A stretch of 64,000 bases of DNA from IMG/VR virus record IMGVR_UViG_3300035494_000066, one strand, 5' to 3'. The stretch's first letter is position 1. Each line of letters opens with the position of its first letter. Below the pieces are notes generated by a model. That model did no database searches. It saw only the letters and a list, made by a program, of their open reading frames with translations, and was not told the origin of the DNA. This document shows positions 18-46,225 of the stretch, piece by piece. The position numbers were made by a program, and so were the translations under genes. Source of the stretch: a virus. Lineage: Duplodnaviria; Heunggongvirae; Uroviricota; Caudoviricetes.

Positions 18-93
18 TGGGGTGATGCATGGGACTCGAACCCATATCTGCCGGAGTCACATTCCGGAGCTCTACCATTAAGCTAGCACCACC
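18..93 (-). tRNA. tRNA-His (anticodon GTG), with encoded G-1 and C73
   Basis: Hand-folded cloverleaf on the minus strand. T-arm GGGTTCGAGTCCC, anticodon loop aTGTGAc, 8-bp acceptor with G-1, CCA encoded. Confidence 0.7.
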
Positions 94-229
94 ATAAACT
101 CTCCGTCGACGCCAACAGTATTGCACTGTTGCACGTTTCGTCTCTGAAAAGACTCATCAGGACGGCTGTCTTATTAATGTTTCTATATTATACAGCTGGT
201 ATACTATTATGTCAACTGCATTTTACATT

Positions 230-307
230 TGGCACCCTTTGTAGGATTTGAACCTACGACCTCCGAGTTCGAAGCACGGCGCTCTGGTCCAACTGAGCTA
301 AAAGGGC
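230..307 (-). tRNA. tRNA-Arg (anticodon TCG)
   Basis: Hand fold. Acceptor gcccttt/aaagggt, D-arm agctcagttggaccagagc, anticodon loop cTTCGAa, T-arm gtaggttcaaatcctac, CCA. Confidence 0.65.
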
Positions 308-319
308 ATATTTGTTATG

Positions 320-838
320 TTAATACGATTCGTACTGTAGTGTTTCGAGGTTTAACTTCTTACGCACATCTGTGAAGTACTGACAGTAATGTGTTGGCTT
401 TTTATAAACGCTAAACGCTTTAATAAAAGACATTGCATCGGCTTTGCGATGAAAGAATACAGTCATTGACTGAGTCTCATTTGCTCGGTATTCGGTGTTA
501 CCGATGCACCAGCCTTTTACGTTATCTTCGTCGTTCCGGTCTTTTACATTGCGATCGAGCCACTCTAATACGTGCGGCTTTAGATTTGGCACACAACGAG
601 TGCAGCACTTTGCAACTTCTTCATCAGACACATCAGGGTTAACTGATTGCATTGCAGATTTAAATCGATCAAACCCTTCAGTATCTAGGTATGGCTCTGC
701 GTTTGGATCAACAAGAGCATCCCAATCAGCGATATCAGAATCTACATATCCTTTCCAACTAACAAGATGGCGACAGTGATATACTTTATCATCCCAGTGA
801 CTATGATGACACCAGATGTGATTTTGTAGATAGTTCAT
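320..838 (-). CDS. hypothetical protein (172 aa), His/Cys-rich
   Basis: Long minus-strand ORF on the strand that carries the neighbouring genes. No recognisable domain. Confidence 0.45.
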   Translation of the reverse strand: MNYLQNHIWCHHSHWDDKVYHCRHLVSWKGYVDSDIADWDALVDPNAEPYLDTEGFDRFKSAMQSVNPDVSDEEVAKCCTRCVPNLKPHVLEWLDRNVKDRNDEDNVKGWCIGNTEYRANETQSMTVFFHRKADAMSFIKAFSVYKKPTHYCQYFTDVRKKLNLETLQYESY

Positions 839-2119
839 ACATCCCTCGAGGAAAGTTGTAAATTGACTAGAAATACTGCTGCGCGTGGTTGATTCTAAGA
901 TTTAGCAAGCGTGTACAGTAACATATCGTCGGTGCTGATTTTAACTGTTGTGCTTGCATACACTCTTGATGTTTTTTTGTTTTTCGAATCAACACGATAA
1001 ATTTTAATCGTCTTTTCGTGCGGCAGTGCGGCCACTACATAACATATTGAAATGCTGGCGTAATACGAAGCCCCTACATAGTCACCAGCGGTAATTTCCT
1101 TTCCTAACAGGTCAGTGTGAACATTCATGCTATATTAAGACAATTTGTTAGATTCAAATGCACGTTGTGACATACCGAAGAACATGTAGTGAAACCAACG
1201 TACATCACCGCTCTGGACTTTAATACGAAAACCGTTTTTGACTTTTTCGACAACCTCGTATGATTGTCCGTCAACAAGACCGCTCCATTTAAAATCGTCG
1301 CCGAGCATACGTGACCGTGCAATAATGTTCATATATGTTCTCCTTGACGTTCTAAGTTATGTGTTTATTATAAGACATGTGTTAGTGAAGGTCAATACTT
1401 TTTCTTACTTTAAGTAAGATCGGACGTAAAATCTGGCCTAGTATTCCAATGCTGTATGCATTCGCGCTTGCTATAACCGAGAATGGTAGCAGTGCACCCG
1501 CCGTAATGCTCTTGGCACACTATCTGCCAAAGCTGATTGCCTTCTGCGTCCTTCCTAGAAGCAGGATAAATTGTATCAATTGGGTCTTGATTATTTAGGT
1601 CATTTCCGCAGAACGGGCAAGGTAGCAAGTCGGCCATAGTTACTCATCTTCTAGTAAATCAAATTCAGCATTAAGTACAGTGAATGCATACTTCATTAAT
1701 TTGTGGAACGCAACCGGGTCTTCGTCTACTAAACGATTACCAACAGTCTCCATGTAGTATCCTTCGGAATCTTTCTTAAAGAACGCAATAGTAAAGCAGT
1801 ATTCTTTCATGTCAGGCATTCTCCAGCCTACAATTTCTGCTTCGCGATTCTCTATCCTCCGGAATTCTAAATCACCTACTCTCATATCAATCTGCCTTAA
1901 GTGTTGTTACTTTTGGTAATCGTCTTTTGGCCCAGCTGGGCGCACTGACCGAGATTGGTAATGTTGCTTAGCGTCTTCTCTCGATTTTTGTATGGTTCGC
2001 AACATTTACCGCACTGTATGTCTTTTTGGAGCAATCGCTGCTCTAGTGCTTCAGGAGAACTAAAGTCTTTACTGCTAATGTTTCTACAAATGCAAACTTT
2101 CATTATTATATCTTAAAGT

Positions 2120-2192
2120 TGGTAGCTCTGGGTGGAATCGAACCACCATTGCACGATTATCAGTCGTGTTTTCTACCGTTGAAATACAGAGC
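2120..2192 (-). tRNA. tRNA-Ile (anticodon GAT)
   Basis: Hand fold. Acceptor agctctg/cagagct, anticodon stem cacga/tcgtg, loop cTGATAa, T-arm ggtggttcgattccacc, CCA. Confidence 0.65.
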
Positions 2193-2199
2193 TAGTGAA

Positions 2200-2279
2200 T
2201 GGTGCCCACAGCAGGGGTCGAACCTGCATGTATCCAATTAACCTTTCTACGATTTCGTAGACCGAGGGTATATGTGGGC
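2200..2279 (-). tRNA. tRNA-like element with canonical acceptor and T-arm but irregular D/anticodon region (possible pseudo-tRNA or insert-bearing tRNA)
   Basis: Acceptor gcccaca/tgtgggc, T-arm gcaggttcgacccctgc and CCA are canonical. The 43-nt core contains a perfect ctacg-aaat-cgtag hairpin and no canonical 5-bp/7-nt anticodon arm. Confidence 0.35.
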
Positions 2280-2286
2280 ATTTAAT

Positions 2287-2362
2287 TGGCGACTGTGACG
2301 GGAGTCGAACCCGCACCAGACTGCTAGACAGGCAGTTATCCTTCCCAGAGGATCTCACAGCC
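2287..2362 (-). tRNA. tRNA-Asp (anticodon GTC), copy 1 (unusual T37)
   Basis: Hand fold. Acceptor ggctgtg/cacagtc, D atcc/ggat, anticodon arm actgc-cTGTCta-gcagt, T-arm gcgggttcgactcccgt, CCA. Confidence 0.55.
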
Positions 2363-2420
2363 AGAAACTTGGCCTTAAGCAGGAGCTACGCTCAACTGTA
2401 CTTAAGGTTACAAACTAATA

Positions 2421-2503
2421 TGGTTGGGGCAGTGGGATTCGAACCCGACATGCTCTCGCGACGGTGTTACAGACCGCTTCCTTTCCCAGAAGGAGTTACC
2501 CCA
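2421..2503 (-). tRNA. tRNA-Tyr (anticodon GTA), long variable arm, copy 1
   Basis: 83 nt. Anticodon arm gcggt-cTGTAac-accgt, long variable region. T-stem is weak (3 bp). CCA encoded. Confidence 0.5.
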
Positions 2504-2510
2504 ATTAAGC

Positions 2511-2586
2511 TGGTGCAGCCTCTCGGAATCGAACCGAGTTCTCTAATTCTTCAGACTAGCGTGAGGACCACCTTCACCAAAGCTGC
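2511..2586 (-). tRNA. tRNA-Phe (anticodon GAA), copy 1
   Basis: Hand fold. Acceptor gcagctt/aggctgc, D gtga/tcac, anticodon loop cTGAAga, T-arm ctcggttcgattccgag, CCA. Confidence 0.7.
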
Positions 2587-2591
2587 ATAAT

Positions 2592-2669
2592 TGGTCTCCC
2601 GGGTAGGATTCGAACCTACGACCACTCAGTTCCAAACCGAGTGCGCTAACCAGACTGCGCTACCGAGAG
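2592..2669 (-). tRNA. tRNA-Pro (anticodon TGG), copy 1
   Basis: Hand fold. Acceptor ctctcgg/ccgggag, D gcgc/gcgc, anticodon arm ctcgg-tTTGGaa-ctgag, T-arm gtaggttcgaatcctac, CCA. Confidence 0.65.
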
Positions 2670-2705
2670 TTTGTTCTATACTGATTCTATCAGTACTATT
2701 GTAAT

Positions 2706-2783
2706 TGGTCCGGATTGCAGGATTCGAACCTGCGACCCCTTGCTCCCAAAGCAAGTGCTCTGCACAAACTGAGCTAAACCCGG
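2706..2783 (-). tRNA. tRNA-Pro (anticodon TGG), copy 2
   Basis: Hand fold. Acceptor ccgggtt/aatccgg, D gctc/gagc, anticodon arm cttgc-tTTGGga-gcaag, T-arm gcaggttcgaatcctgc, CCA. Confidence 0.6.
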
Positions 2784-2790
2784 AATAAAA

Positions 2791-2865
2791 TGGTAGCTCC
2801 AACAAGAATCGAACTTGTATTTCACCGTTATCAGCGGTACGTTCTAGCCGTTGAACTATGGAGCT
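2791..2865 (-). tRNA. tRNA-Ile (anticodon GAT), copy 2
   Basis: Hand fold. Acceptor agctcca/tggagct, D gttc/gaac, anticodon arm taccg-cTGATaa-cggtg, T-arm acaagttcgattcttgt, CCA. Confidence 0.65.
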
Positions 2866-2871
2866 ATTATT

Positions 2872-2945
2872 TGGTGGACCGACGGGGAATCGAACCCCGA
2901 TCACTACAGTGCAAGTGTAGTATAATACCGTTATACTATCAGCCC
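2872..2945 (-). tRNA. tRNA-Ala (anticodon TGC) with G3:U70, copy 1
   Basis: Hand fold. Acceptor gggctga/tcggtcc carries a G3:U70 wobble (Ala identity). Anticodon arm ctaca-cTTGCac-tgtag, T-arm cggggttcgattccccg, CCA. Confidence 0.65.
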
Positions 2946-2980
2946 AAAACGTTTAAGTAAACTAATGCTTACTCTTAAAA

Positions 2981-3056
2981 TGGTATCCCGTAGGGGAATC
3001 GAACCCCTGTTAGCAGGTTGAAAACCTGCTGTCCTGACCGACTAGACGAACGGGAC
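2981..3056 (-). tRNA. tRNA-Glu (anticodon TTC), copy 1
   Basis: Strong resemblance to bacterial tRNA-Glu. gtcccgttcgtctag..., 3-bp D stem, anticodon arm gcagg-tTTTCaa-cctgc, T-arm aggggttcgattcccct, CCA. Confidence 0.75.
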
Positions 3057-3148
3057 ATTTAATAGTAACAGGGCAAGTCTACCTCTTGCTGTTAAGCGAA
3101 CTGTTGCACACACGTCAACTCCCCCGAAGGTTTTACAACGCTGTGCTC

Positions 3149-3224
3149 AGCTTATACCTGTTATAAATTGGCGGACCTGACGAGTTTCGATCTCGCTACC
3201 TCGACAGTGACAGTGTCGCGCTCT
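3149..3224 (-). tRNA. tRNA-Asp (anticodon GTC), copy 2 (T-loop has A54)
   Basis: Hand fold. Acceptor ggacctg/caggtcc, D gctc/gagc, anticodon arm cgaca-cTGTCac-tgtcg, T-arm gcgag-atcgaaa-ctcgt, CCA. Confidence 0.6.
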
Positions 3225-3332
3225 CCCGATTGAGCTACAGGTCCTTAAATTCTGACACCTATTCCGGCTTTTACGGCAACGTTTTTATTGCTGCTAGTGC
3301 CCAACAGCATGTTGCTTGATACTTCATGAATT

Positions 3333-3409
3333 TGGTGCAGCGAGTAGGAATTGAACCTACGACACCCTGGGCTTCAACCAAGTGCTCTACCGGACTGAGC
3401 TATCGCTGC
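3333..3409 (-). tRNA. tRNA-Phe (anticodon GAA), copy 2
   Basis: Hand fold. Acceptor gcagcga/tcgctgc, D gctc/gagc, anticodon arm cttgg-tTGAAgc-ccagg, T-arm gtaggttcaattcctac, CCA. Confidence 0.55.
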
Positions 3410-3410
3410 G

Positions 3411-3486
3411 TGGCGTTCCTGCAGGGACTCGAACCCTGTGCTGCGGAGTGAAAACCCGCTGATTTAACCACATAATCGACAGGAAC
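3411..3486 (-). tRNA. tRNA-Glu (anticodon TTC), copy 2
   Basis: Hand fold. Acceptor gttcctg/caggaac, D gatt/aatc, anticodon arm gcggg-tTTTCac-tccgc, T-arm cagggttcgagtccctg, CCA. Confidence 0.6.
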
Positions 3487-3492
3487 AAAAAT

Positions 3493-3568
3493 TGGTAGGA
3501 CCGGGCGGACTTGAACCGCCAACCACCCGCTTAAAAGGCGGATGCTCTAACCATTGAGCTACGATCCT
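3493..3568 (-). tRNA. tRNA-Lys (anticodon TTT)
   Basis: Hand fold. Acceptor aggatcg/cggtcct, D gctc/gagc, anticodon arm tccgc-cTTTTaa-gcggg, T-arm ggcggttcaagtccgcc, CCA. Confidence 0.7.
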
Positions 3569-3570
3569 AA

Positions 3571-3656
3571 TGGCTCCTCGGGTAGGCTTCGAACCTACAA
3601 TGCCTATCGGCGCCTGATTAACAGTCAGGTGACTTTACCAGTTTGTCTACCGAGGA
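3571..3656 (-). tRNA. type-II (long variable arm) tRNA with anticodon GTT; discriminator G73
   Basis: 86 nt. 3-bp D stem with 11-nt D loop, perfect anticodon arm cctga-cTGTTaa-tcagg, 14-nt variable arm, T-arm gtaggttcgaagcctac, CCA. This architecture is normally Ser/Leu/Tyr, not Asn. Confidence 0.5.
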
Positions 3657-3667
3657 ATTTTAAAAAT

Positions 3668-3752
3668 TGGTAGCGAGAGCAGGATTCGAACCTACGAAGC
3701 CATTGGCAATGGGTTATGAGCCCATTCACTTTGTCCGCTTGTATATCTCGCA
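3668..3752 (-). tRNA. type-II (long variable arm) tRNA with anticodon CAT; 1:72 mismatch; discriminator A73
   Basis: 85 nt. 3-bp D stem with 11-nt D loop, perfect anticodon arm atggg-cTCATaa-cccat, 13-nt variable arm, T-arm gtaggttcgaatcctgc, CCA. Confidence 0.5.
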
Positions 3753-3757
3753 ATAAT

Positions 3758-3841
3758 TGGTGGGCCAGGCTGGACTTGAACCAGCAGTGCTTTCGCGTCG
3801 GGTTTACAGCCCGATAGGGTTACCAATTTTCCTACTGACCC
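3758..3841 (-). tRNA. tRNA-Tyr (anticodon GTA), type II, copy 2
   Basis: 84 nt. Acceptor gggtcag/ctggccc, anticodon arm tcggg-cTGTAaa-cccga (canonical Tyr loop), 12-nt variable arm, T-arm gctggttcaagtccagc, CCA. Confidence 0.7.
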
Positions 3842-3891
3842 GTAACTGAAGTAGCTAGATTTGAATCTATAACATACTCCAATGAAAAATT

Positions 3892-3965
3892 TGGTGGAGA
3901 CATGGAGAATCGAACTCCAATCACTACAGTGCAAGTGTAGTATAATACCGTTATACTATATCCCC
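3892..3965 (-). tRNA. tRNA-Ala (anticodon TGC) with G3:U70, copy 2
   Basis: Body is nearly identical to the copy at 2872-2945 (shared ~50-nt core). Acceptor and T-stem differ (ggggata/tgtctcc, tggagttcgattctcca). CCA encoded. Confidence 0.65.
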
Positions 3966-3967
3966 AT

Positions 3968-4043
3968 TGGCTCCCTGGACTGGATTCGAACCAGTAGCGA
4001 CTTGGTTAAAGCCAAGTGCCCCTACCTATAGGGCCCCCAGGGA
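3968..4043 (-). tRNA. tRNA-Lys-like with 6-nt anticodon loop (cTTTaa)
   Basis: All four arms are otherwise canonical: acceptor tccctgg/ccaggga, D gccc/gggc, T-arm actggttcgaatccagt, CCA. The perfect anticodon stem cttgg/ccaag encloses only 6 nt, ctttaa. Confidence 0.45.
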
Positions 4044-4044
4044 A

Positions 4045-4120
4045 TGGTGCTCGGTGATGGAATCAAACCATCCTGAAACTTGCTTGTAAGGCAAGCGCCT
4101 CCTCAATCGGCCAACCGAGC
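4045..4120 (-). tRNA. tRNA-Val (anticodon TAC)
   Basis: Hand fold. Acceptor gctcggt/accgagc, anticodon arm cttgc-cTTACaa-gcaag, T-arm gatggtttgattccatc, CCA. Confidence 0.65.
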
Positions 4121-4124
4121 AGTT

Positions 4125-4200
4125 TGGTTGTAGTGGTGGGATTTGAACCCACAAACCTTCACATTATGAATGTGCTGCTCTACCATTGAGCTACACTACA
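4125..4200 (-). tRNA. tRNA-Met (anticodon CAT), elongator-type (1:72 paired)
   Basis: Hand fold. Acceptor tgtagtg/cactaca, D gctc/gagc, anticodon loop tTCATaa, T-arm gtgggttcaaatcccac, CCA. Confidence 0.65.
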
Positions 4201-4596: not shown

Positions 4597-4733
4597 CTAC
4601 TCGGATAACAAAAAGAACACTAATTATGTTGCGTTTGTAACATAGTTAACTAAACTGTTGTTGTGTATACGCTTAGTCTTAAATTGTAATCTATGCATTA
4701 ATTATACAGATTAGTTACACACTGTCAACATAA

Positions 4734-6197
4734 TTATTTCAAATTTTTAATCGGTATTAGTTCGGGATGTGCGCTGTAAAAATCGGTGTTGCGCTTCTGG
4801 TCAAACGACTCAGTGCTAGTTACAAATTTGTGGCTTAGATCATTTCGATTATTAAACTTGCGTAAGAAGTTAGTAACCCAATTTAGCTCAGTGTAGTTAC
4901 TACTCTGATACTTTTCGATTGCTAAATCCCTGAGCCATTGAGGAGCATTAGCTACACTAAACTCTGCAGGATCTGTAACAAAACCCCAAACTAAATTAGC
5001 GTTAAGTGTTTTCGATAGAGACACAACATTGTCTAGATACAATAAATTTTGTGTATTAACAGTAACAGAAAAACTCAACTTAGCATGTGCATTCTGCATG
5101 CAGAACTTAGAAAAATCGTTAAGATTTTCTGCAACTTCGTTCCATTTACCACCGCGTTGGATTTCAAATCGACGACCGACGTCATCGATGCTTGCTATGA
5201 TTTCTATAGATTTGAACCTCTGCAATAGTTGCATAATGTCTGGTTTATACACACTACCGTTTGTGTTGATGCTAATGCTCATGTTGTGTGCTTGCTTTAA
5301 ATCGATTAGCCTTGTTAACAACTTCTCTAAGTTAGGATTAATCAACGGTTCACCGCCTAGTAAGTGAACACTTTCGCAACTGTTGAAATCAATTTTAGAC
5401 AGAAAATCTTCCTCTAGAGGAATTTTCCCAAAGACTTCAAATGCTCTGAGATTGTTTTGTTCTTTAGCAACTCGTGTGCTTGCGTCAGGATTGCATATTC
5501 GACATTTAAAGTTACAAAATGAAGTAGCCGACACAGTTATGTCCCGGAGCTCAATGTTATCAAACCACCGAGTGTTGCAAGCGTGTAAAAACTTTTCAAT
5601 AAACTGTTGCCGTCTGCTAATTGCTCCTTGCTCTTCTTTTCTCCAGCATTCATTGCAGCCTGGGTGCTTAGTATTGCTGCTTATAGCAGCCCTAATCGAA
5701 GCGTACTGACTGTTATCCTCAATTGAGAAATTTCTATCTGTGATAGTAACGCTGTTAGAGTACTCACAGCACGGTTTTGCACTTTTATTGCTGCGAATGT
5801 TAATCATTCCGTACGGTGCAGGACAAAATGTTTCGGATAGTGCTGGGAAAGAGTCTAGCTGTATTGGTGCAGTTATAGTTCCTTCATAATTAACTACTTC
5901 AAAATCGATGTCTGAATAATCAACTATGTTGTTTCTGACGTATTCTATTTCAGCAGTTAAGTCTTGGGGGGTTTCGAGACGAACAAAACACAGTGAAATG
6001 TCGGCACGTAAAGCAGCAAATGCTAAATGGGCAATGTGCTGCCATGTCATCGGGTGCGATGTATATAGGACAATACGCTCGTCTGGTCTAAAATACGGTT
6101 TTGTGATAGCTTGAAAATAACGATACGCAGTTGAGTGTACATCACCTAATACTTCGCTCAAGTCTGCCTTACTAACTATATTAATTTCTGCGGTCAT
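4734..6197 (-). CDS. radical SAM enzyme, SPASM/twitch-type, with N-terminal Cys-rich domain (487 aa)
   Basis: CxxxCxxC motif (CNFKCRIC), GGEPL-like motif, NTNGS motif. N-terminal CxxCW...RRQQ motif is shared with the rSAM at 18300-19610. Confidence 0.75.
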   Translation of the reverse strand: MTAEINIVSKADLSEVLGDVHSTAYRYFQAITKPYFRPDERIVLYTSHPMTWQHIAHLAFAALRADISLCFVRLETPQDLTAEIEYVRNNIVDYSDIDFEVVNYEGTITAPIQLDSFPALSETFCPAPYGMINIRSNKSAKPCCEYSNSVTITDRNFSIEDNSQYASIRAAISSNTKHPGCNECWRKEEQGAISRRQQFIEKFLHACNTRWFDNIELRDITVSATSFCNFKCRICNPDASTRVAKEQNNLRAFEVFGKIPLEEDFLSKIDFNSCESVHLLGGEPLINPNLEKLLTRLIDLKQAHNMSISINTNGSVYKPDIMQLLQRFKSIEIIASIDDVGRRFEIQRGGKWNEVAENLNDFSKFCMQNAHAKLSFSVTVNTQNLLYLDNVVSLSKTLNANLVWGFVTDPAEFSVANAPQWLRDLAIEKYQSSNYTELNWVTNFLRKFNNRNDLSHKFVTSTESFDQKRNTDFYSAHPELIPIKNLK

Positions 6198-6328
6198 AGT
6201 ACCCTAGTGTCGTGAAAGTGCAGTTCGGCGTCAAATCCAAGCAGTCCGATTGTAACTCGAAAACCAGCATGGTCGCACAGTGCGGAAACGTTAACGTCGA
6301 CGCTGACGATTGTTGGTGTTTTGTACAT
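6194..6328 (-). CDS. small ORF (43 aa) translationally coupled to the radical SAM gene (stop overlaps rSAM ATG as ATGA)
   Basis: Hand translation MYKTPTIVSVDVNVSALCDHAGFRVTIGLLGFDAELHFHDTRVL. Weak RBS. Not in the ORF track because it is shorter than 60 aa. Confidence 0.3.
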   Translation of the reverse strand: MYKTPTIVSVDVNVSALCDHAGFRVTIGLLGFDAELHFHDTRVL

Positions 6329-6692
6329 ATTGGCTTCTAGCACTTTGTTAACTTTTGGAAAGCTAAATGCTTTGTGTACAACAGTAGACCAACGGTTAAC
6401 GCCGGGTCTGACAAGTTGGTATTAAACGAAATCATTTGCTCGAATCCTTATACTTTTCGACTGCAGACGCAATGCGTTGCTTAAGGTCTAAATATGATGT
6501 TGAGTAATACTCATCGTCGGCTAAGTACGGAACTGCTACCCGTTCTACAGTCTTCTTAAAAGTCCAGCACATCGACGTAACCAATTCACTCTCACGACTT
6601 AAGCCTCCCATCACGCGAACGTGTAAACATGCTTCTAAAAACTAGCTAGTGTTTCTTTCTTTTTATTTATTATAGTGTCTTTTTGCGTAGTG

Positions 6693-6998
6693 TCAACTAA
6701 AAAACCGAAACTTTTTTGGTTTTTTAACTTCGTTGACTCGAGTCAACAAGCTGTGCAGCACACGTTGATATTTATTATCGCCGTCTAACTCAAAACGTTC
6801 GAGGCGATAGTAAAAATCTCCATCTCGGCGTGTACGAAGCACTTTATCTGCGCACAAGTAGTCTGTGCGATCGGACACATTGCGAAGCACGAAGTCGTAC
6901 ATAGCAGGATCGGATGATCTTTCTACCCGATACACAGATCCTTTAAAGTAGATGTTATTGCCTAGTTGCAAATCGTTAACTACTTTTACATGCATCAT
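6693..6998 (-). CDS. hypothetical protein (101 aa)
   Basis: Minus-strand ORF downstream of a TTGACA-17-TATACT promoter at about 7020-7060. Confidence 0.45.
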   Translation of the reverse strand: MMHVKVVNDLQLGNNIYFKGSVYRVERSSDPAMYDFVLRNVSDRTDYLCADKVLRTRRDGDFYYRLERFELDGDNKYQRVLHSLLTRVNEVKKPKKFRFFS

Positions 6999-7058: not shown

Positions 7059-7700
7059 CTATTTACACGTGATCTTACTAATTTTTTCCACTATGCTTGA
7101 GTATGTAGAAGACGTGTACTCGGAGTCTACTAGATACGGTGTCTCGTATACTTGTACAATCTGTGTAGCTTGTGAAATAAATTGGTCAAACTCGTTAACG
7201 TCGCGGTTCAACATAGTGAATTCTTTGATTAGTTGTCTCAAGGTGTTGTTGTGCTTTACTAATACCTGTTCTAGTTCTTCGAGCTCAGGAAATTGATCCC
7301 AGCTTAGCTCGCTTAGTAATTCGGTAACATAGTGACAACTGTTTGCAACATATCCGTTTAAGAATCTTGACGTGTTCTTGAGTGCAACATTGCAATCTGA
7401 CAGTAAAGTTTCGACGTGTGTGTATTTTTGATCAACAACACGTTGCTTAGAAACAAAGTCTAACGCTACGTATCGGCTTAACATCTTCTTTGTTGTGCAG
7501 AACTTCTTTGTAATAGCTTGTTTAATTAGATCAGTTTTGCCGTCAATTGCATCCACTATTAGCGCAATCTGGTCCTGCTGTTTGACAATAATTGCAGTAG
7601 ATTGTTCAATTACCCGGTCACGTTTTGCAGTAGCAACGTTAATGGCTTCTTTTAGAGAATCAATTTCTGCAGCCGGGACTTTGCGCAAATCAACTTTCAT
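7059..7700 (-). CDS. hypothetical coiled-coil protein (213 aa)
   Basis: Long minus-strand ORF. No domain recognised. Confidence 0.5.
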   Translation of the reverse strand: MKVDLRKVPAAEIDSLKEAINVATAKRDRVIEQSTAIIVKQQDQIALIVDAIDGKTDLIKQAITKKFCTTKKMLSRYVALDFVSKQRVVDQKYTHVETLLSDCNVALKNTSRFLNGYVANSCHYVTELLSELSWDQFPELEELEQVLVKHNNTLRQLIKEFTMLNRDVNEFDQFISQATQIVQVYETPYLVDSEYTSSTYSSIVEKISKITCK

Positions 7701-8520: not shown

Positions 8521-8595
8521 TTGGCCTGCCTACCAGGACTCGAACCCGGATTAAAGGAGTAGAAATCCTCTGTGTTATCCGTTACACTATAGGCA
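8521..8595 (-). tRNA. tRNA-Arg (anticodon TCT)
   Basis: Hand fold. Acceptor ctgccta/taggcag, D gtgt/acac, anticodon arm gagga-tTTCTac-tcctt, T-arm ccgggttcgagtcctgg, CCA. Confidence 0.65.
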
Positions 8596-8825
8596 GGTGA
8601 AGTTTTACTTTGTGTGCTGTTTCCAGCGATTTAAATCTCGGAGCAGTTTATCTGCTCGATCAAATACATTTTGTAACATTAACCGTTCGTAGTCAGTTGG
8701 GTCATAACTAGGCGTGCCAACTGTTTCTTCTACTACCGCAGATCGAAGTTCTGCAATTTGAAGCAGCTTGTTGTCAATCCAACTTGTAGTATGGATGCTC
8801 ATTATTACTACTCCTTTTTAATGTA

Positions 8826-8911
8826 TGGTACCGATGAACGGACTCGAACTGTTACGCTATCTCTAGCAGAAGATTTTGAATCTCCTGTGTCTACCATTCC
8901 ACCACATCGGC
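8826..8911 (-). tRNA. tRNA-Leu (anticodon CAA), type II
   Basis: 86 nt. Acceptor gccgatg/catcggt, 3-bp D stem, anticodon arm ggaga-tTCAAaa-tcttc, 15-nt variable arm, T-arm aacagttcgagtccgtt, CCA. Confidence 0.6.
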
Positions 8912-9005
8912 ATAGTATGCGTTTTTACTTATCAGCGTAAGGCCGCACCCCCTGCTAATGAACTTTTTTAACGTAGTGTTCGTCTACGTTCACGGGCGTG
9001 TTGTT

Positions 9006-9186
9006 TGGTGCAAACGACGGGACTCGAACCCGCAATTACAGTTAACAAGGGCATTACTCCTTGCTAGTACAAGATTGGAAAAGCAGTCATCCCGCCTTGA
9101 AACCATGCTCCTGTGCTACTCGCTGTTAGGATTTTACTCCTCACTGTCCTTTTTCAGTGTGCGTATGCCATTTCCGCCACGTTTGC
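9006..9186 (-). ncRNA. tRNA-like RNA: canonical T-arm and 3' acceptor half with CCA, plus a matching 5' acceptor strand 181 nt away (insert of ~105 nt)
   Basis: 3' part gcgggttcgagtcccgt-cgtttgc-a-cca at 9006-9035. The complementary gcaaacg lies at 9180-9186. The interior contains a hairpin cactg-aaaaagga-cagtg. Confidence 0.3.
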
Positions 9187-9196
9187 ATGTTAAAAT

Positions 9197-9270
9197 TGGT
9201 GGGTCTGCCTGGAATCGAACCAGGACCGAGCGGTTATGAGCCGCCTGCTCGACCGTCAAGCTACAGACCC
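9197..9270 (-). tRNA. tRNA with CAT anticodon (Met elongator or Ile2-type; 1:72 paired)
   Basis: Hand fold. Acceptor gggtctg/cagaccc, D gctt/gagc, anticodon arm ggcgg-cTCATaa-ccgct, T-arm cctggttcgattccagg, CCA. Confidence 0.65.
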
Positions 9271-9963
9271 TTAAACTTTATTACTTGCGTAGTATACGCA
9301 TTTTTATTTATTATGTCAAGTATTTTTACATCACACTATACAAGCAGGCGTCTTAGCTGCTCTAGTATTAAAGTAACACCGCATTCTAGACCAACTCGGT
9401 ATAGTTACTTCCTAGACTTCTCTAGTTGACACAATACATGGTCATATAACTGATCGTGTTATATCGCGTCATGTCACTTGCTGTGTGCCGCAGCTATACA
9501 ATGTGATGTAAAAATACGCCTCGCGAAGCGTCACTAGTACCAATTTATCCAGTGATCTCATCTACACCAATGGAGGTCACTGTGATCCGGTGGTAATCGC
9601 CATATGCCTGATCCTGTATTAGGGCACCTGGTTTTACTGGGTTGTAGTTGCCGGTGCTGATCTCCGGCTTGCTGGTTGTGACATCTTAGGTTCCGTTTCA
9701 AACCATACAGCGCTGTATGTACGCGGTTCCCAGCGGCAGTCGGGCCAGCGACCATCTCAAGTCTTGAGATTCTTCGTGCGAGGATAAGTCGCACTTCATC
9801 TCGCGCATCAGCCTGCGCATTTACTACAACTAGAAGCATACTGCTGTTAGTGCTTGTATCGTCCGCACTCTTATACTCAGACAGTCTGCCGCTGCTCTCA
9901 CACCAACTCGCGTATTCTGGCGCAACAGCAATATGCTTGTAGTTTTAGTAAAATACAGTAATC

Positions 9964-10040: not shown

Positions 10041-10056
10041 TATCTCTTATATTGTT

Positions 10057-10633: not shown

Positions 10634-11080
10634 TTAATGTGATTTTTTCTCTTCGTCGTAGACACGTTTCCGCAGTGATGACGAACTAAACGAATGTTCG
10701 CGATCATTGAACACACACTTGTCCATGTGACCTGAGATGTCTTTGCCTGTAAAGTGCTTGGTTTTGTATTCATCGCCAAGAATACGAACATCATAGTCTA
10801 AGCACAGCAACAAGTCGTGCAAATCCTTCTCTGTGTGGTACACAATTGTGTGGTCTACATAACGTGAGGATGCTACTTGTATTTGGCGCTCAACGATCGA
10901 CTGTACTGGCTTATTCTTTGACGGACGATCTGCACTCGGGTCAATTTGGATTGCTACAATCAAATAGTCACAATGTTTCTTTGCGTCCCGGAACATCAAG
11001 TGATGCCCTGCATGACACAGGTCAAACGCACCAGCAGTAATGCCTACAGTCAAATTCTGTCTATTAGGAATGTCGATCAT
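10634..11080 (-). CDS. cytidylyltransferase-family nucleotidyltransferase (TagD / RfaE domain II-like, HxGH)
   Basis: GAFDLCHAGHHLMF (HxGH), DYLIVAIQID, ILGDEY and a C-terminal SSSSLR motif resemble glycerol-3-phosphate cytidylyltransferase. 148 aa. Confidence 0.6.
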   Translation of the reverse strand: MIDIPNRQNLTVGITAGAFDLCHAGHHLMFRDAKKHCDYLIVAIQIDPSADRPSKNKPVQSIVERQIQVASSRYVDHTIVYHTEKDLHDLLLCLDYDVRILGDEYKTKHFTGKDISGHMDKCVFNDREHSFSSSSLRKRVYDEEKKSH

Positions 11081-11409
11081 AAGTCTCTCTCATATTTTTC
11101 AAAAATAGCGATGAACACCAAGTCATCAGAGCTGCTATCGTTGTATACACGGTGGAAAGCGCCATCAGGTATCATAAAAAGAGAACCGCTCTCAACTTGG
11201 TAGAAATCGTTGTCGATTTGTATGCGGCCTGTCCCGGAATGAAAGATGTAAACCTCTTCAAGCCCTGGATGAGAGTGGCCGCGTGTCTGCATCTCAGGAT
11301 GCAATGTTGTTTTTGATACTGTTAGATGATTTAGGAACGTGTTATCTTCGAGTAAGTAAGTCTCGTTGTCTTTGATAACGGTTCCGTTTAAGTTTTGGAT
11401 TGATGTCAT
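11077..11409 (-). CDS. cupin-domain protein (110 aa)
   Basis: GHSHPGLEEVYIFHSGTGRI cupin motif. Start overlaps the upstream gene stop by 4 nt (coupled). Confidence 0.55.
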   Translation of the reverse strand: MTSIQNLNGTVIKDNETYLLEDNTFLNHLTVSKTTLHPEMQTRGHSHPGLEEVYIFHSGTGRIQIDNDFYQVESGSLFMIPDGAFHRVYNDSSSDDLVFIAIFEKYERDL

Positions 11410-11439
11410 ATTAATTGTGTATTATCTTTTTACCCGATA

Positions 11440-17966: not shown

Positions 17967-18370
17967 CGATAAAACGGTTTCGGAATATGTAACGTTAGTG
18001 TGCCGTTAAATCCTAAGTATGGCATCGGAGGTAGTTCACCGAATTCAGTATGGTACTTTCCGAATCGAAAAATATTCTCTGCCACATTAACATCGTCTAT
18101 GTATAACTCGTCGATTATAACAGCAGTTTCTTTCTCTACATAGTGCTTATTCTGCATGGATACTGTGATTGTAACGTCGTCTAACAACGGTATAGACGTG
18201 TTAACGTGTACATCATTGTACAAGTCGCAATCTAATAGAGTAATGCCGTTTACTGTCACAGTAACGCCAGGGAAGCCGGCGTCGACTATAGGACGTAACT
18301 TAGCTCTTACTTGAAGACGTAGGTCGCTGGTATCCGTGCCGGATAAAAAGTTCTGTATACACTGGGACAT
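17921..18370 (-). CDS. hypothetical protein (149 aa; true start may be internal)
   Basis: Overlaps the rSAM gene by about 70 nt. Confidence 0.4.
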   Translation of the reverse strand: MSQCIQNFLSGTDTSDLRLQVRAKLRPIVDAGFPGVTVTVNGITLLDCDLYNDVHVNTSIPLLDDVTITVSMQNKHYVEKETAVIIDELYIDDVNVAENIFRFGKYHTEFGELPPMPYLGFNGTLTLHIPKPFYRWRHDIKEYGWYITQ

Positions 18371-19610
18371 AATCTAATATTGAATTTTTCCTTACTGCTT
18401 CTATCTTAGTTATAAACGATATCAAGTCAGCAAACCTATAAGTGTCACTAGGCGCCGAGTTAAGATAGTTGATATAACTTGTCACATCATGATACAAACT
18501 TGATTCTACTACAGACGGCGCTCGGGCATTAGGATTAGAAGCACTCCTTGACACCTGTTCGGAGAATGTAGAGTCTCGCCAATTGGTAAGATCCTCGACA
18601 ATCGTTGCTCGAACACTGTCGGGCAAGACAGTTGGCCGCATGTACTCTGGAAATTCCAAGAAATTACAACTCTCTACGCTCATACTGTTTGCAAGTGCGT
18701 ACTCGTATATAGGGATTAGCTTGTGTACAGTAAAGATGGTAGGTGTTGTTCGGAGTTGGATTAACCATTTAACTCCGTCGTTAAGACTTGCCCAGCGATC
18801 TAGCTCAGCTTTTGCATCAGCAATGTTAGATCCGTATCGCACATAGTCATTGACTTCGTCTAGTGACTCAATACTTAGTCCGACATGCACTTGCCTAAAC
18901 TCGTGTAACAAGTGAACGATACTATCGTCCCAGCTGGATAAGTTTGTAGTAAACCCGATTATAACTTTGTTTGCTACACCAGCTGCTACAATTTCATTAA
19001 TTAAACGCTTAAATGCTGGGATAATTAACGTTTCACCGCCGATGAAATGCAAGTATGCCGGCTGATTCAGCTTAACTAGATCATTAACAAATTTGTCAAC
19101 TAGGTCTGGATCATCAGTCCAGTTTTTGTGAGAGTGCGAATCGATTATTTTTGCTTTTATCAAATCGTGCGCTAGTCGGCTACTCGATTCTGGTTTGCAA
19201 AATATACATGCATTATTGCAGTAATTTCCTAGATCTATTTGCCAGTCGACCGGAAATATCTGAGCAGTAGAATCCGTTAGCCTGTCTTTCCATTCTGAGC
19301 TTAGTAGAGATTTTTCAAACGCAGTTATGTCGATACCGGTCTTAATTAGCTGCTGTGCTCTACCACTGGTTTTTCCATACTTGTCCATGTTGTAACACGG
19401 AGTACAATTATGCACAACTTCGCCGTTGACATGTTGTTGCCTAACAGCTTGCATCACATTATTAAAGTATTCCAAAGGAGACATATCGGATATGTGGGGC
19501 ATTGTAGATGGGCGATACGCCCATCTACAATAGTTGTAGTGCCCCGACGCAGTTATCCGGAAATGAAACCAAGGGCTCGAGCAAAATGTTGTTTTGAGGT
19601 CAGACATCAA
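18300..19610 (-). CDS. radical SAM enzyme, SPASM/twitch-type, with N-terminal Cys-rich domain (436 aa)
   Basis: CNNACIFC (CxxxCxxC), [14 protein letters not shown] and ESLDEV blocks parallel the 4734-6197 protein. N-terminal CTPCY...GRAQQ motif. Confidence 0.75.
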
Positions 19611-20227
19611 TTTCTTTTAGTAACTACTTCGTCGGCAAAACCGTTTGCAACTGCTTCACTGGCCGACAAAAACGTATCGAATTTCATTGTTTCGAACAGT
19701 TCGTCGTATGTCTTGCCAGCAGTGTTGTGATGCTCGTACAGTTGTGTTAGCCGTTCGTTTAGGCGCTTCGATTCTTGCAAGTGTCGTGCTGCATCTTCGA
19801 ATTCAAGTTCCTGGACGTGCACAGATCCGGTAGTACCTCGCGTTCCTGAGCTTACTCGGTGGATCATTGTGCGAGACTCTGGTAGTACAAACCGCTTGCC
19901 AGGAGCGCCAGCTTGAGCTAGGAAACTACCCATTGAAGCTGCTTGGCCTAGGACAATAGTCGATACATCAGGGCGAATAAATTGCATAGTGTCGTAAATT
20001 GCCAAGCCTGCAGTTACTGAGCCACCAGGAGAATTGATGTACATAATAATGTCTTCAGTTGGCGATTCTGCTTCTAGGAATAACAGCTGTGACACAACTA
20101 AGTTAGCCATACTGTCAGTGACCGGGCCGTTGAGCATCACAATGCGGTCTTTCATGAGTCGACTGTAAAGGTCGTAACTACGCTCGCCCTGTGATGTTTG
20201 TTCGACTACGATGGGTACTAGGTTCAT
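19607..20227 (-). CDS. clpP: ATP-dependent Clp protease proteolytic subunit ClpP homologue
   Basis: ClpP family. [10 protein letters not shown] active-site Ser, conserved His/Asp context. 206 aa. Stop overlaps the rSAM start. Confidence 0.8.
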
Positions 20228-45358: not shown

Positions 45359-46225
45359 TTAGCGAAAGTTTACTTCGTACTGGAGTTCTATTTCAGGTTT
45401 TGTCTTATTACATAATTTGTTTACACTACACACAATAGAACATGTTTTTTCTGGCGAATCCGATGTCCATGACGGTGCAACATCATCGATTGTTTTATGT
45501 ACTCCGAATATTCCGAAAAAGCAGCACGGGAATAAATCTCCTTTTGCATCGATGTATGCTTTCTTGCCGCGCAAACTAAGGCAATCGATGTGTCCCGGTT
45601 CAGAAGCAGGAGGTACCCAGCCAGTTGGATATTCTAATCCCGGAACCAATGCACGGGTACTTACTTTTGCACGGAATTGAGCAAACCCCAGTGATCTCGC
45701 TAACTCGATGCAGTCTTCTACTTGGTGTTCGTTGTGCTTATATATTAGCATATCCCAGCGGGCATTCCCCCCGGCGTTGATGAACGTCTGTACATTATCA
45801 ATAAGCTTATTCCAGTTGACATTCCGACGGTATATATGATTAGTGTCTGCTAATCCGTCGATGCTAAATGTAACATAATCTGTTTCGTACGAAAGAATGT
45901 CAGCAAGCTCTGCCCACCAACTCGGGCTTCGAATAGCACCGTTGGTGTTTATCGAAAGAGAGCACAGCGGGTTAATCTGTTTAGTTTGTTTTAATATATC
46001 CAGTGTGTGGCGGCCAGCAGCAGGATCGCCGAAGTTCCCGCAGAGTAGCAATCGCTTAAGTTGCTTAATCTGCTCGATGCTAAAATGCGTTAGCACTTGT
46101 TCGAATGACAAATGATTGTTTGACCTTTTATCAAACAATCCAGCGTCTTCTCTAGGACATTGCGGGCAAGCTGCCTGACATACATCAGTACTTTCTAAGT
46201 GTAATACGTTAATTTCTCTGATCAT
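45359..46225 (-). CDS. radical SAM enzyme, SPASM/twitch-type (288 aa)
   Basis: CQAACPQC (CxxxCxxC) at the N-terminus. LCGNFGDP and SINTNGA blocks. C-terminal Cys cluster CLSLRG...PCCFFG. Confidence 0.7.
   Translation of the reverse strand: MIREINVLHLESTDVCQAACPQCPREDAGLFDKRSNNHLSFEQVLTHFSIEQIKQLKRLLLCGNFGDPAAGRHTLDILKQTKQINPLCSLSINTNGAIRSPSWWAELADILSYETDYVTFSIDGLADTNHIYRRNVNWNKLIDNVQTFINAGGNARWDMLIYKHNEHQVEDCIELARSLGFAQFRAKVSTRALVPGLEYPTGWVPPASEPGHIDCLSLRGKKAYIDAKGDLFPCCFFGIFGVHKTIDDVAPSWTSDSPEKTCSIVCSVNKLCNKTKPEIELQYEVNFR

What the first reader, a model, noticed from the sequence alone, without database searches (positions are those of the whole stretch)
4734..6328. Three paralogous SPASM-type radical-SAM enzymes with a shared N-terminal CxxC[WY]...R.QQ domain; one is translationally coupled to a 43-aa upstream ORF
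The rSAMs at 4734-6197, 18300-19610 and 45359-46225 share these blocks:
- CxxxCxxC;
- GGEPL / GNFGDP;
- (S/T)(I/T)NTNG(S/A);
- IxSIDxV.

Two of them also share an unusual N-terminal Cys motif: CNECWRKEEQGAISRRQQ versus [24 protein letters not shown] rSAMs are typically peptide or protein modifiers (anSME, PqqE, sactisynthases).

Immediately upstream of the first enzyme is a 43-aa ORF, MYKTPTIVSVDVNVSALCDHAGFRVTIGLLGFDAELHFHDTRVL. Its stop overlaps the rSAM start codon (ATGA), which is a precursor-peptide-like arrangement. Three such enzymes in one phage window is unusual.
Basis: partly seen in the sequence, partly recalled or inferred. Interest (0 to 1): 0.75.

Follow-up and report, generated by a model that had tools for sequence, protein, structure and literature searches.

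The report
Phage twitch-type radical SAM enzyme trio
A large uncultured phage carries three iron-sulfur "radical SAM" enzymes of an uncharacterised but widespread phage and bacterial family. The small upstream ORF proposed as their peptide substrate is a fragment of an unrelated, frameshifted small phage gene.

Summary
All three radical SAM (rSAM) ORFs are real, on the minus strand. rSAM1 (4734-6197) and rSAM2 (18300-19607) belong to NCBIfam NF033640, "twitch domain-containing radical SAM protein". rSAM3 (45359-46225) is a different, shorter rSAM with a C-terminal twitch-like Cys set. None has a full SPASM motif.

The peptide-precursor reading fails:
- The upstream ORF is 44 aa, not 43. It is the 3' two-thirds of an ~80-aa gene from a conserved small-protein family, split here by a 1-nt frame change.
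- Homologues of that family sit next to non-rSAM genes.
- The family is absent from about 115 related rSAM loci.
- ATGA overlaps occur at about 10% of gene junctions in this window.
- rSAM1's extra N-terminal domain is a (βα)4 fold, not a peptide-recognition element.

Several rSAMs per genome is already reported for T4-like aquatic phages, and about half of the related loci here carry two or more.

Relatives sit beside glycosyltransferases, sugar aminotransferases and sugar-phosphate nucleotidyltransferases. This makes sugar or nucleotide-sugar tailoring the best guess, but it is unproven. This is a new member of a known, uncharacterised kind.

The parts
4734..6197 (-). rSAM1, 487 aa. It has a phage-specific N-terminal (βα)4 domain (aa 1-118, nt 5844-6197), an N-terminal twitch domain (aa ~121-215; C125, C143, C144, C181, C184), an rSAM core (C228/C232/C235, GGEPL, NTNG) and a helical C-terminal region.
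18300..19607 (-). rSAM2, 435 aa from ATG 19607 (the ORF list gives TTG 19610). It is an N-terminal-twitch rSAM without the extra N-terminal domain. Cysteines: C9, C27, C68, C71 and C130/C134/C137. Its ATG overlaps the ClpP stop codon.
   Evidence: NF033640 at 223 bits.
45359..46225 (-). rSAM3, 288 aa. Its rSAM core has C16/C20/C23 and CGNxGDP in place of GGE. It has a C-terminal twitch-like Cys set (C215, C234, C235, C262, C266). It is not a member of NF033640.
   Evidence: 38.7 bits against 170. More than 2000 homologues at about 50% identity. Family-conserved Cys.
6194..6435 (-). Split small gene of about 80 aa when the two frames are joined. The N-terminus MISFNTNLSDP is read from ATG 6435 in one frame. 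The rest (GVNRW...DHAGFRVTIGLLGFDAELHFHDTRVL*) is in the -1 frame from about 6403.
   Evidence: Exhaustive phmmer. Three-frame translations. End-to-end alignment of the joined sequence with 17 homologues. Identical sequence in the separately assembled contig L129. In-frame codon usage is gene-like.
6400..6408 (-). Site of the 1-nt frame change (GAC CCG GCG read as ..CCG|GGC GTT..). There is no canonical slippery heptamer and no significant downstream RNA structure.
   Evidence: RNA fold z = -1.2.
6669..6696 (-). Perfect sigma-70 consensus promoter (TTGACA-N16-TATAAT). It heads the unit 60-aa ORF, split small gene, rSAM1.
   Evidence: Five perfect sites are found, all on the minus strand, against 0.02 expected.
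4701..4728 (-). Second perfect sigma-70 consensus promoter, immediately after the rSAM1 stop. It heads the downstream tRNA array.
18..4200 (-). Array of 22 tRNA genes directly downstream of rSAM1. Seven more tRNA genes lie at 8522-13209.
   Evidence: This adjacency is not conserved in related rSAM loci.
10634..11409 (-). Cupin protein (11077-11409) and an RfaE-domain-II / TagD-like sugar-phosphate nucleotidyltransferase (10634-11080), overlapping by 4 nt. The same nucleotidyltransferase lies next to N_Twi rSAMs in L055, L119 and L120. In L086 and L087 it is fused to a PMI-type cupin.
19607..20227 (-). ClpP protease directly upstream of rSAM2. A ClpP ... N_Twi rSAM neighbourhood recurs in L055, L119 and L120.

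Best explanation
The window comes from an uncultured jumbo phage of about 300 kb, distantly T4-like. It carries three Fe-S radical enzymes of the SPASM/twitch group.

What the enzymes are:
- rSAM1 and rSAM2 are divergent paralogues of NCBIfam NF033640, rSAM proteins whose single-cluster twitch domain is N-terminal.
- rSAM1 belongs to a subfamily of about 500 aa, seen here only on phage-like contigs, with an extra N-terminal (βα)4 domain.
- rSAM3 belongs to a separate, very abundant family of about 288 aa with a C-terminal twitch-like Cys set.

Mechanism (inferred from the superfamily, not shown here): the CxxxCxxC [4Fe-4S] cluster reductively cleaves SAM to a 5'-deoxyadenosyl radical. That radical abstracts a substrate hydrogen. 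The auxiliary cluster (Cys125/143(144)/181/184 in rSAM1) then accepts an electron or anchors the substrate, as in BtrN and anSME.

Most likely substrate class (inferred from family-level gene neighbourhoods): a small molecule, namely a sugar, nucleotide-sugar or glycan, that these phages tailor as part of a multi-rSAM auxiliary gene set. It is not a ribosomal peptide.

The upstream small ORF is an unrelated neighbour. It is the distal fragment of a frameshifted small phage gene of about 80 aa, and its ATGA overlap with rSAM1 reflects the tight gene packing of this genome.
For: Identity of the enzymes:
- PF04055 hits above threshold for all three.
- NF033640 scores of 236 and 223 bits against a cut-off of 170.
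- Invariant twitch and rSAM cysteines in 96 homologues, and in 120 rSAM3 homologues.
- AF2 model with pLDDT 92. The closest solved folds are SkfB, viperin, SuiB, anSME and BlsE, matching only over the core (TM about 0.3).
- Many uncultured-phage rSAMs and the KVP40 and phi-pp2 'MoaA/NifB/PqqE' proteins share the fold (TM up to 0.8).

Phage setting:
- An identical rSAM3 lies on a 302,565-bp contig.
- Topoisomerase II is 43% identical to that of Vibrio phage Va1.

The multi-rSAM set is a clade feature:
- 56 of 83 related loci carry the ~500-aa rSAM together with a gp47-like gene, typically in the order gp55 - gp47 - rSAM - gp46 followed by one to three more rSAMs.
- rSAM3 orthologues (47-49% identity) lie 2-5 kb downstream in 7 of 21 loci that extend far enough.
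- Homologues of about 800 aa are tandem fusions of two N_Twi modules.
- The literature reports up to 12 rSAMs in one T4-like environmental viral genome (PMC5332604).

Link to sugars:
- Bacteroidota and Bdellovibrionales homologues occur as up to four copies per locus. GT4/GT1 glycosyltransferases are present in 19 of 30 loci, with PhyH dioxygenases, an NAD epimerase/dehydratase and WelO5-like proteins also nearby.
- Vibrio phage K566 has four rSAMs interleaved with two GT8 genes and one GT4 gene.
- Pelagibacter phage Mosig has three MoaA-like rSAMs among genes annotated in its GenBank record as an ArnB-type sugar aminotransferase, a carbamoyltransferase and methyltransferases, with an acetyltransferase-domain gene further off.
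- An RfaE-II-like nucleotidyltransferase lies next to the rSAM in L055, L119 and L120, and is present with a PMI-like cupin in this window.

The small ORF.
Against: - No glycosyltransferase was detected among the 25 Pfam families listed for the window (25 of 50 matching families were shown). None of the three rSAMs here has a sugar gene as an immediate neighbour.
- The ~500-aa subfamily usually sits among DNA replication and recombination genes (gp55, gp47, gp46).
- rSAM1 follows a consensus early-type promoter. This would also fit a nucleic-acid or host-takeover role.
- No member of NF033640 or of the rSAM3 family has been characterised in the literature searched.
- rSAM subfamilies often change substrate.
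- The fold search gives no specific functional match.
Confidence: 0.5

Rival explanations
1. RiPP system: rSAM1 modifies the 44-aa product of the overlapping upstream ORF, for example with a thioether or carbon-carbon cross-link.
For: - The stop and start codons overlap (ATGA).
- In-frame codon usage of the ORF is gene-like.
- SPASM/twitch rSAMs include many peptide maturases, and SkfB is the top solved-structure hit.
Against: - The ORF is a fragment of a conserved, frameshifted ~80-aa gene.
- Its homologues neighbour an NT5C-like gene, not rSAMs.
- The family is absent from about 115 N_Twi_rSAM loci.
- No conserved small ORF lies next to family members.
- Upstream genes of rSAM1 homologues are gp47, gp55 or unrelated.
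- ATGA overlaps occur at about 10% of junctions.
- The peptide has a single Cys and no repeated core motif.
Confidence: 0.03
2. Nucleic-acid or nucleotide chemistry. The rSAMs would modify phage DNA bases (hypermodification), phage-encoded tRNAs or free nucleotides. rSAM1 would be an early gene next to the tRNA array, and rSAM2 lies near GTP cyclohydrolase I.
For: - rSAM1 lies between a consensus early promoter and a 22-tRNA array.
- GTP cyclohydrolase I (16383-17054) and a HIT protein lie 1-2 kb from rSAM2.
- The ~500-aa subfamily is embedded between gp47 and gp46.
- Viperin and MoaA, which act on NTPs, are among the best structural matches.
- A phage rSAM is known in thymidine hypermodification (M6 gp53, PMC8989533).
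Against: - The tRNA adjacency is not conserved. No tRNAs were found in L001-L005 or L041, and only L119 and L120 among 83 loci have any.
- QueE, MoaA and viperin models score far below their cut-offs, and MiaB-type and other tRNA-modifying rSAM models are not among the listed hits.
- No QueC, QueD or DpdA was seen in the window.
- M6 gp53 is SPL-like, a different rSAM subfamily.
Confidence: 0.2
3. Protein modification, or general Fe-S and redox 'auxiliary metabolism'. The rSAMs would act on a phage or host protein, in the manner of anSME or activating enzymes. Alternatively they would form part of a virus-driven Fe-S economy together with ClpP and Fe-S assembly genes.
For: - ClpP is directly upstream of rSAM2, and this is syntenic in L055, L119 and L120.
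- Relatives carry Fe-S assembly (IscA-like), SOD and further rSAMs nearby.
- Nishimura et al. 2017 link viral rSAMs, ClpP, Grx and Fe-S scaffold genes.
- anSME is among the structural matches.
Against: - No candidate substrate protein is conserved beside the genes.
- Scores against anSME-like and activase models are far below their cut-offs.
- The sugar-gene neighbourhoods are more specific.
Confidence: 0.15

Closest known systems
NCBIfam NF033640 (N_Twi_rSAM, 'twitch domain-containing radical SAM protein')
   Same: rSAM1 and rSAM2 match the model end to end above its cut-off. They have the same order of domains: N-terminal C...CC...CxxC twitch, then CxxxCxxC core.
   Different: rSAM1 has an extra (βα)4 domain of about 118 aa, seen here only on phage-like contigs. 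No function is known for the family in the literature searched. rSAM3 is not a member.
BtrN (2-deoxy-scyllo-inosamine dehydrogenase), the archetypal twitch-domain rSAM acting on a carbohydrate-like substrate
   Same: One auxiliary cluster sits in a truncated SPASM (twitch) domain. By analogy, the substrate would be a sugar-type small molecule and the reaction a two-electron oxidation. This comparison rests on established knowledge and inference.
   Different: The BtrN twitch domain is C-terminal. There is no detectable sequence relationship beyond the core, and BtrN is not among the top Foldseek hits.
SPASM RiPP maturases and anSME (SkfB, SuiB, CteB, anSMEcpe)
   Same: They are among the best solved-structure matches, together with viperin (E 3e-7 to 1e-4), and belong to the same SPASM/twitch clan.
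   Different: - The match covers only the core (TM about 0.3).
- There is no RRE and no conserved precursor gene.
- The auxiliary domain is N-terminal and binds a single cluster.
- NCBIfam maturase models score 20-55 bits against cut-offs of 300-720.
Multi-rSAM gene sets of T4-like aquatic phages (Nishimura et al. 2017, PMC5332604; pelagimyophage rSAM cassettes, PMC7029224; Vibrio phage K566; Pelagibacter phage Mosig; KVP40 'MoaA/NifB/PqqE family protein')
   Same: Several SPASM/twitch-type rSAMs occur per phage genome, often with ClpP, Fe-S assembly genes or sugar-tailoring genes.
   Different: - This phage has no close cultured relative.
- Its three rSAMs are dispersed over 41 kb rather than clustered.
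- rSAM1 is not in the usual gp47-gp46 slot.
Viperin / MoaA (NTP-acting rSAMs)
   Same: Core fold similarity is highest when normalised to the target (TM up to 0.56). There are weak HMM hits.
   Different: Scores are far below family cut-offs (viperin 36.9 against 180; MoaA 49 against 284). The auxiliary domain and C-terminal region differ.

Membership tests
Radical SAM superfamily (PF04055) | CxxxCxxC cluster motif and a Pfam score above the gathering threshold | tested here: met
   Scores are 53.5, 41.7 and 38.7 bits against a cut-off of 29.5. The motifs are [16 protein letters not shown] and CQAACPQC.
NCBIfam NF033640 N_Twi_rSAM | Full-length HMM score above the curated cut-off of 170 bits | tested here: met
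   rSAM1 scores 236.1 bits (aa 121-481) and rSAM2 scores 223.2 bits (aa 7-421). rSAM3 scores 38.7 bits and is not a member.
NCBIfam NF033640 N_Twi_rSAM | Twitch-type Cys set located N-terminal to the rSAM core | tested here: met
   C125, C143, C181 and C184 are invariant, and C144 is present in 98-99% of about 97 homologues. rSAM2 has C9, C27, C68 and C71. Bacterial homologues give PF13186 hits at residues about 20-88.
SPASM domain proper (two auxiliary clusters) | Seven-Cys motif CX9-15GX4C...CX2CX5CX3C...C and a PF13186 hit above threshold | tested here: not met
   Only 4-5 conserved auxiliary Cys are present in each protein. PF13186 is absent for rSAM1 and rSAM2 and scores 14.2 against 21.5 bits for rSAM3. 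This fits the one-cluster twitch type.
rSAM-dependent RiPP system | Precursor-peptide gene conserved next to the maturase across homologous loci | tested here: not met
   An HMM of the small-protein family finds 0 hits in about 115 rSAM loci. No conserved small ORF is present. Homologues of the small protein neighbour non-rSAM genes.
rSAM-dependent RiPP system | RiPP recognition element (PqqD-like winged helix-turn-helix) in the maturase or a partner protein | tested here: not met
rSAM-dependent RiPP system | Enzyme-dependent modification of the peptide | not testable with these tools
   This needs co-expression and mass spectrometry.
QueE / 7-deazaguanine pathway | QueE HMM above its cut-off, with QueC, QueD and DpdA partners present | tested here: not met
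   QueE models score 23-33 bits against cut-offs of 206-260. Only GTP cyclohydrolase I was found in the window.
Viperin / MoaA | Family HMM above its cut-off | tested here: not met
   Viperin scores 36.9 against 180 bits. MoaA scores 49.3 against 284 bits.
Twitch rSAM with a functional auxiliary [4Fe-4S] cluster | A second Fe-S cluster is bound and required for catalysis | not testable with these tools
   Only the conserved cysteines are shown. EPR or Mössbauer spectroscopy and Cys-to-Ala variants are needed.

The most novel reading that the evidence does not exclude
The conserved multi-rSAM set of uncultured aquatic T4-like and jumbo phages may build a so far unknown radical-tailored sugar or nucleotide. 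The set comprises the ~500-aa N-terminal-twitch enzyme with its phage-specific (βα)4 domain, the ~288-aa C-terminal-twitch enzyme, and further rSAM and SDR-like partners. The phage would attach the product to its DNA or virion. That would be a new class of viral hypermodification or glycan chemistry, with a new rSAM architecture at its centre.
Probability: 0.15. Interest if true: 0.7.

Novelty: new member of a known kind. Interest (0 to 1): 0.35.

Why it matters
The RiPP idea was the exciting part of the finding, and it does not hold.

What remains is a well-defined open problem. Two large, conserved and entirely uncharacterised families of twitch-type rSAM enzymes recur in uncultured aquatic T4-like phages:
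- NF033640, including a ~500-aa subfamily seen here only on phage-like contigs and found at a fixed gp47-gp46 position in dozens of metagenomic phage contigs.
- A ~288-aa family with more than 2000 homologues at about 50% identity.

Bacterial members of NF033640 lie in glycan-type loci. Identifying the substrate would explain why these phages invest in several oxygen-sensitive Fe-S enzymes. It could also reveal new sugar or nucleotide chemistry.

Tried and rejected
1. Word-indexed search of the 49-aa ORF against 5.8 billion proteins found nothing. The exhaustive phmmer search then found the family, so the first negative came from the prefilter.
2. Megablast and tblastn against cultured phages found no close relative of the region or of the three rSAMs. 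The small protein has no cultured-phage match and no PHROG family.
3. An IMG/VR scan with rSAM1 and with a 21-mer from the small gene found nothing.
5. tRNA-modification idea from the adjacent 22-tRNA array: the adjacency is not conserved.
6. Programmed -1 frameshift in the small gene: there is no slippery heptamer and no significant structure (z = -1.2). The frame change is identical in a second, separately assembled contig, so random assembly error is unlikely. Pseudogene or split gene is favoured.
7. A conserved 96-117-aa ORF (cluster K26) upstream of some N_Twi rSAMs looked spurious on inspection, being low-complexity or antisense-like.
8. Literature searches for NF033640, N-terminal twitch rSAMs or rSAMs in glycan loci found no characterisation.
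9. The afdb50 fold library was unavailable.
10. Solved-structure sequence search returned only weak MoaA and SuiB hits.
Full report
**Observation**

The three ORFs exist as described, all on the minus strand: rSAM1 at 4734-6197 (487 aa), rSAM2 at 18300-19610 and rSAM3 at 45359-46225 (288 aa). For rSAM2 the likely start is ATG 19607, giving 435 aa.

Each has a CxxxCxxC motif and a Pfam Radical_SAM hit above the gathering threshold.

rSAM1 and rSAM2 are distant paralogues (23% identity, E 9e-14). rSAM3 resembles rSAM1 only over the generic core (E 3e-6). It shows no significant similarity to rSAM2.

The "shared blocks" (GGE-type motif, NTNG, SID) are general features of this branch of the superfamily. 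rSAM2 lacks the NTNG block.

**The N-terminal Cys motif**

Both rSAM1 and rSAM2 match NCBIfam NF033640, "twitch domain-containing radical SAM protein", nearly end to end. They score 236 and 223 bits against a cut-off of 170.

In an alignment of 96 homologues, these residues are invariant or nearly so:
- C125, C143(C144), C181, C184, W185, E188, S194 and R196;
- the rSAM triad C228, C232 and C235.

This set of 4-5 Cys fits a one-cluster twitch domain rather than a full SPASM domain, and here it lies N-terminal to the core.

**rSAM3**

rSAM3 belongs to a different family, with more than 2000 homologues at about 50% identity and 281-305 aa among those listed. Its conserved C-terminal Cys are C215, C234, C235, C262 and C266. 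This is again twitch-like, but C-terminal. "SPASM-type" is therefore right as a clan and wrong in detail.

**Structure of rSAM1**

An AF2 model of rSAM1 is confident (pLDDT 92). Solved structures match only over the core: SkfB, viperin, SuiB, anSME and BlsE, with TM about 0.3.

Predicted viral proteins match much better, with TM up to 0.8. These include many "uncultured Caudovirales" rSAMs and the KVP40 and phi-pp2 "MoaA/NifB/PqqE family" proteins.

rSAM1 has an extra N-terminal domain of about 118 aa. It is conserved in the ~500-aa subfamily (D12, Y45, D66 and F71). It was not aligned in most of the bacterial homologues, whose matches begin at about residue 121 of rSAM1.

**The small ORF**

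The ORF starts at ATG 6328 and has 44 codons, not 43. Its TGA overlaps the rSAM1 ATG.

A word-indexed search found nothing. An exhaustive phmmer search against 1.84 billion representatives found about 17 small proteins of 54-154 aa. The best has E 7.6e-11 and 61% identity. Their residues about 32-77 match the ORF.

Three-frame translation shows how the gene is arranged:
- The family's N-terminus (MI.FN..L.NP...) is encoded by the 32-aa ORF that starts at ATG 6435.
- The rest (..RW......NK.LE.N.YKT......DHAG....GLLG...E.H.YDTR) continues in the -1 frame from about 6403.

The joined 80-aa sequence aligns end to end with the family.

A separately assembled contig (L129) is 100% identical over 4241 bp, including this site. 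Random assembly error is therefore unlikely.

There is no slippery heptamer and no significant local RNA structure (z = -1.2). A disrupted or split gene is more likely than programmed frameshifting.

In-frame codon usage of the fragment is gene-like.

**Is the small protein linked to rSAMs?**

No, on five counts:
- Its homologues lie in a module of 76-77 aa, then 89-94 aa, then a 165-aa NT5C-like gene. These sit on phage contigs that also carry NAMPT and NMNAT-Nudix genes, with no rSAM nearby.
- An HMM of the family finds it in none of about 115 N_Twi_rSAM loci (1.37 Mb).
- No other conserved small ORF flanks those genes.
- The genes upstream of rSAM1 homologues are gp47, gp55 or unrelated.
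- Four-nucleotide overlaps occur at 10 of about 100 junctions in this window, and rSAM2 overlaps ClpP in the same way.

The RiPP reading is not supported.

**Is three rSAMs unusual?**

No. A metagenome scan returned 80 loci of the ~500-aa subfamily. With three loci fetched earlier, 83 related loci were analysed:
- 56 of them also carry a gp47-like gene, typically in the order gp55 - gp47 - rSAM - gp46 followed by one to three more rSAMs.
- Occasional neighbours are a B12-type rSAM and an SDR-like protein.
- About half of the loci carry two or more rSAMs.
- rSAM3 orthologues lie 2-5 kb downstream in 7 of 21 sufficiently long loci.
- Homologues of about 800 aa are tandem fusions of two N_Twi modules.

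Other phages show the same pattern. Vibrio phage K566 has four rSAMs within 7 kb. Pelagibacter phage Mosig has three.

Nishimura et al. 2017 reported T4-like marine viral genomes with up to 12 rSAM genes, alongside ClpP, Grx and Fe-S scaffold genes (PMC5332604). Pelagimyophage rSAM cassettes are noted in PMC7029224.

**Genomic setting**

The window belongs to a contig of about 302 kb. The phage is distantly T4-like: its topoisomerase II is 43% identical to that of Vibrio phage Va1.

The window also holds:
- 29 tRNA genes;
- ClpP, DNA and RNA ligases, and NAMPT;
- GTP cyclohydrolase I and a HIT protein;
- Acb3;
- an RfaE-II-like nucleotidyltransferase with a cupin.

Five perfect TTGACA-N16/17-TATAAT sites lie on the gene strand, against 0.02 expected. 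One, at 6696-6669, heads the unit 60-aa ORF, split small gene, rSAM1. Another, at 4728-4701, follows the rSAM1 stop and heads the tRNA array.

**Function**

Nothing in the literature searched characterises either family. The most consistent signal is carbohydrate tailoring:
- Bacteroidota and Bdellovibrionales members of NF033640 occur as up to four copies per locus. GT4/GT1 glycosyltransferases are present in 19 of 30 loci, with PhyH dioxygenases, an NAD epimerase/dehydratase and WelO5-like enzymes also nearby.
- The rSAMs of Vibrio phage K566 are interleaved with GT8 and GT4 genes.
- The rSAMs of Pelagibacter phage Mosig sit among genes annotated in its GenBank record as an ArnB-type sugar aminotransferase, a carbamoyltransferase and methyltransferases.
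- An RfaE-II/TagD-like sugar-phosphate nucleotidyltransferase lies next to the N_Twi rSAM in L055, L119 and L120. It is fused to a PMI-type cupin in L086 and L087, and is present with a cupin in this window.

I therefore favour radical tailoring of a sugar, nucleotide-sugar or glycan, with moderate confidence. Possible reactions are oxidation, epimerisation or dehydration, with the twitch cluster as electron acceptor by analogy with BtrN and anSME.

There is evidence against this:
- No glycosyltransferase lies next to the rSAMs in this window.
- The ~500-aa subfamily sits among DNA replication and recombination genes.
- rSAM1 appears to be expressed early.

Nucleic-acid or nucleotide chemistry and protein modification therefore remain live rivals.

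**Verdict**

The enzyme-class assignment is refined to the N-terminal-twitch family NF033640 plus a separate C-terminal-twitch family. The peptide-precursor interpretation is not supported.

The finding is a new member of a known, widespread but uncharacterised kind. It is of moderate interest as an open biochemical problem, not as a new system.

Noticed in passing
window 6194-6435 (-), frame change near 6400-6408: A conserved phage small-protein gene of about 80 aa (motifs NPFS.RW, DHAG, YDTRHWD) is split by a 1-nt frame change. The same sequence occurs in a separately assembled contig. The family has no PHROG or Pfam match and no cultured-phage homologue.
   Followed up: yes
window 187-215, 4701-4728, 6669-6696, 14735-14762, 17149-17177 (all -): Five perfect sigma-70 consensus promoters (TTGACA-N16/17-TATAAT) lie on the gene strand, against 0.02 expected by chance. 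They are probably phage early promoters, confined to the first 17 kb of the window.
   Followed up: partly
window 18-4200 and 8522-13209 (-): There are 29 tRNA genes, including duplicates (Pro-UGG x2, Ile-GAU x2, Asp, Phe, Glu, Tyr, Ala, Met x3). One call at 3968-4043 has an undetermined two-base anticodon ('tt').
   Followed up: no
window 10634-11409 (-); L055, L086/L087, L119/L120: A cupin is paired with an RfaE-domain-II/TagD-like nucleotidyltransferase. In L086 and L087 the two are fused, with a PMI-type cupin. In three related phage loci the nucleotidyltransferase lies next to an N_Twi rSAM. This hints at a phage nucleotide-sugar pathway.
   Followed up: partly
L042-L121 (metagenome loci): Synteny is strongly conserved: baseplate or tail-like genes, gp55, gp47, the ~500-aa rSAM, gp46, one to three further rSAMs (with or without a B12-type rSAM and an SDR-like protein), then what looks by eye like a GIY-YIG-type protein. 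The rSAM is inserted between the two subunits of the gp46/gp47 nuclease.
   Followed up: partly
P0064, P0074, P0076, P0100, P0108, P0109, P0112, P0115, P0117: Homologues of about 800 aa are tandem fusions of two complete N-terminal-twitch rSAM modules. This suggests that these enzymes work in pairs.
   Followed up: partly
window 16383-17054 and 17174-17590 (-): GTP cyclohydrolase I and a HIT-family protein lie 1-2 kb downstream of rSAM2. No QueC, QueD, QueE or DpdA was detected in the window, so the role of the cyclohydrolase is unexplained.
   Followed up: no
window 27993-28751 (-): Strong match to the CBASS inhibitor Acb3 (Pfam PF25187, E 2e-60).
   Followed up: no
window 13382-13909 and 13927-14427 (-): Two adjacent ORFs of about 170 aa each give weak, sub-threshold hits to the ribosomal L7/L12 C-terminal domain. 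They are possibly paralogues.
   Followed up: no
window 6432-6614 and 7059-7700 (-): By eye, the C-termini of the 60-aa and 213-aa ORFs upstream of rSAM1 share a motif (VPYLADDEYYSTSY... against TPYLVDSEYTSSTY...). This was not tested statistically.
   Followed up: no
window 34857-36476 (-); L126: NAMPT is present in the window. The related contig L126, which carries the small-protein family, also has NAMPT plus an NMNAT-Nudix gene (an NAD salvage module like that of KVP40).
   Followed up: no
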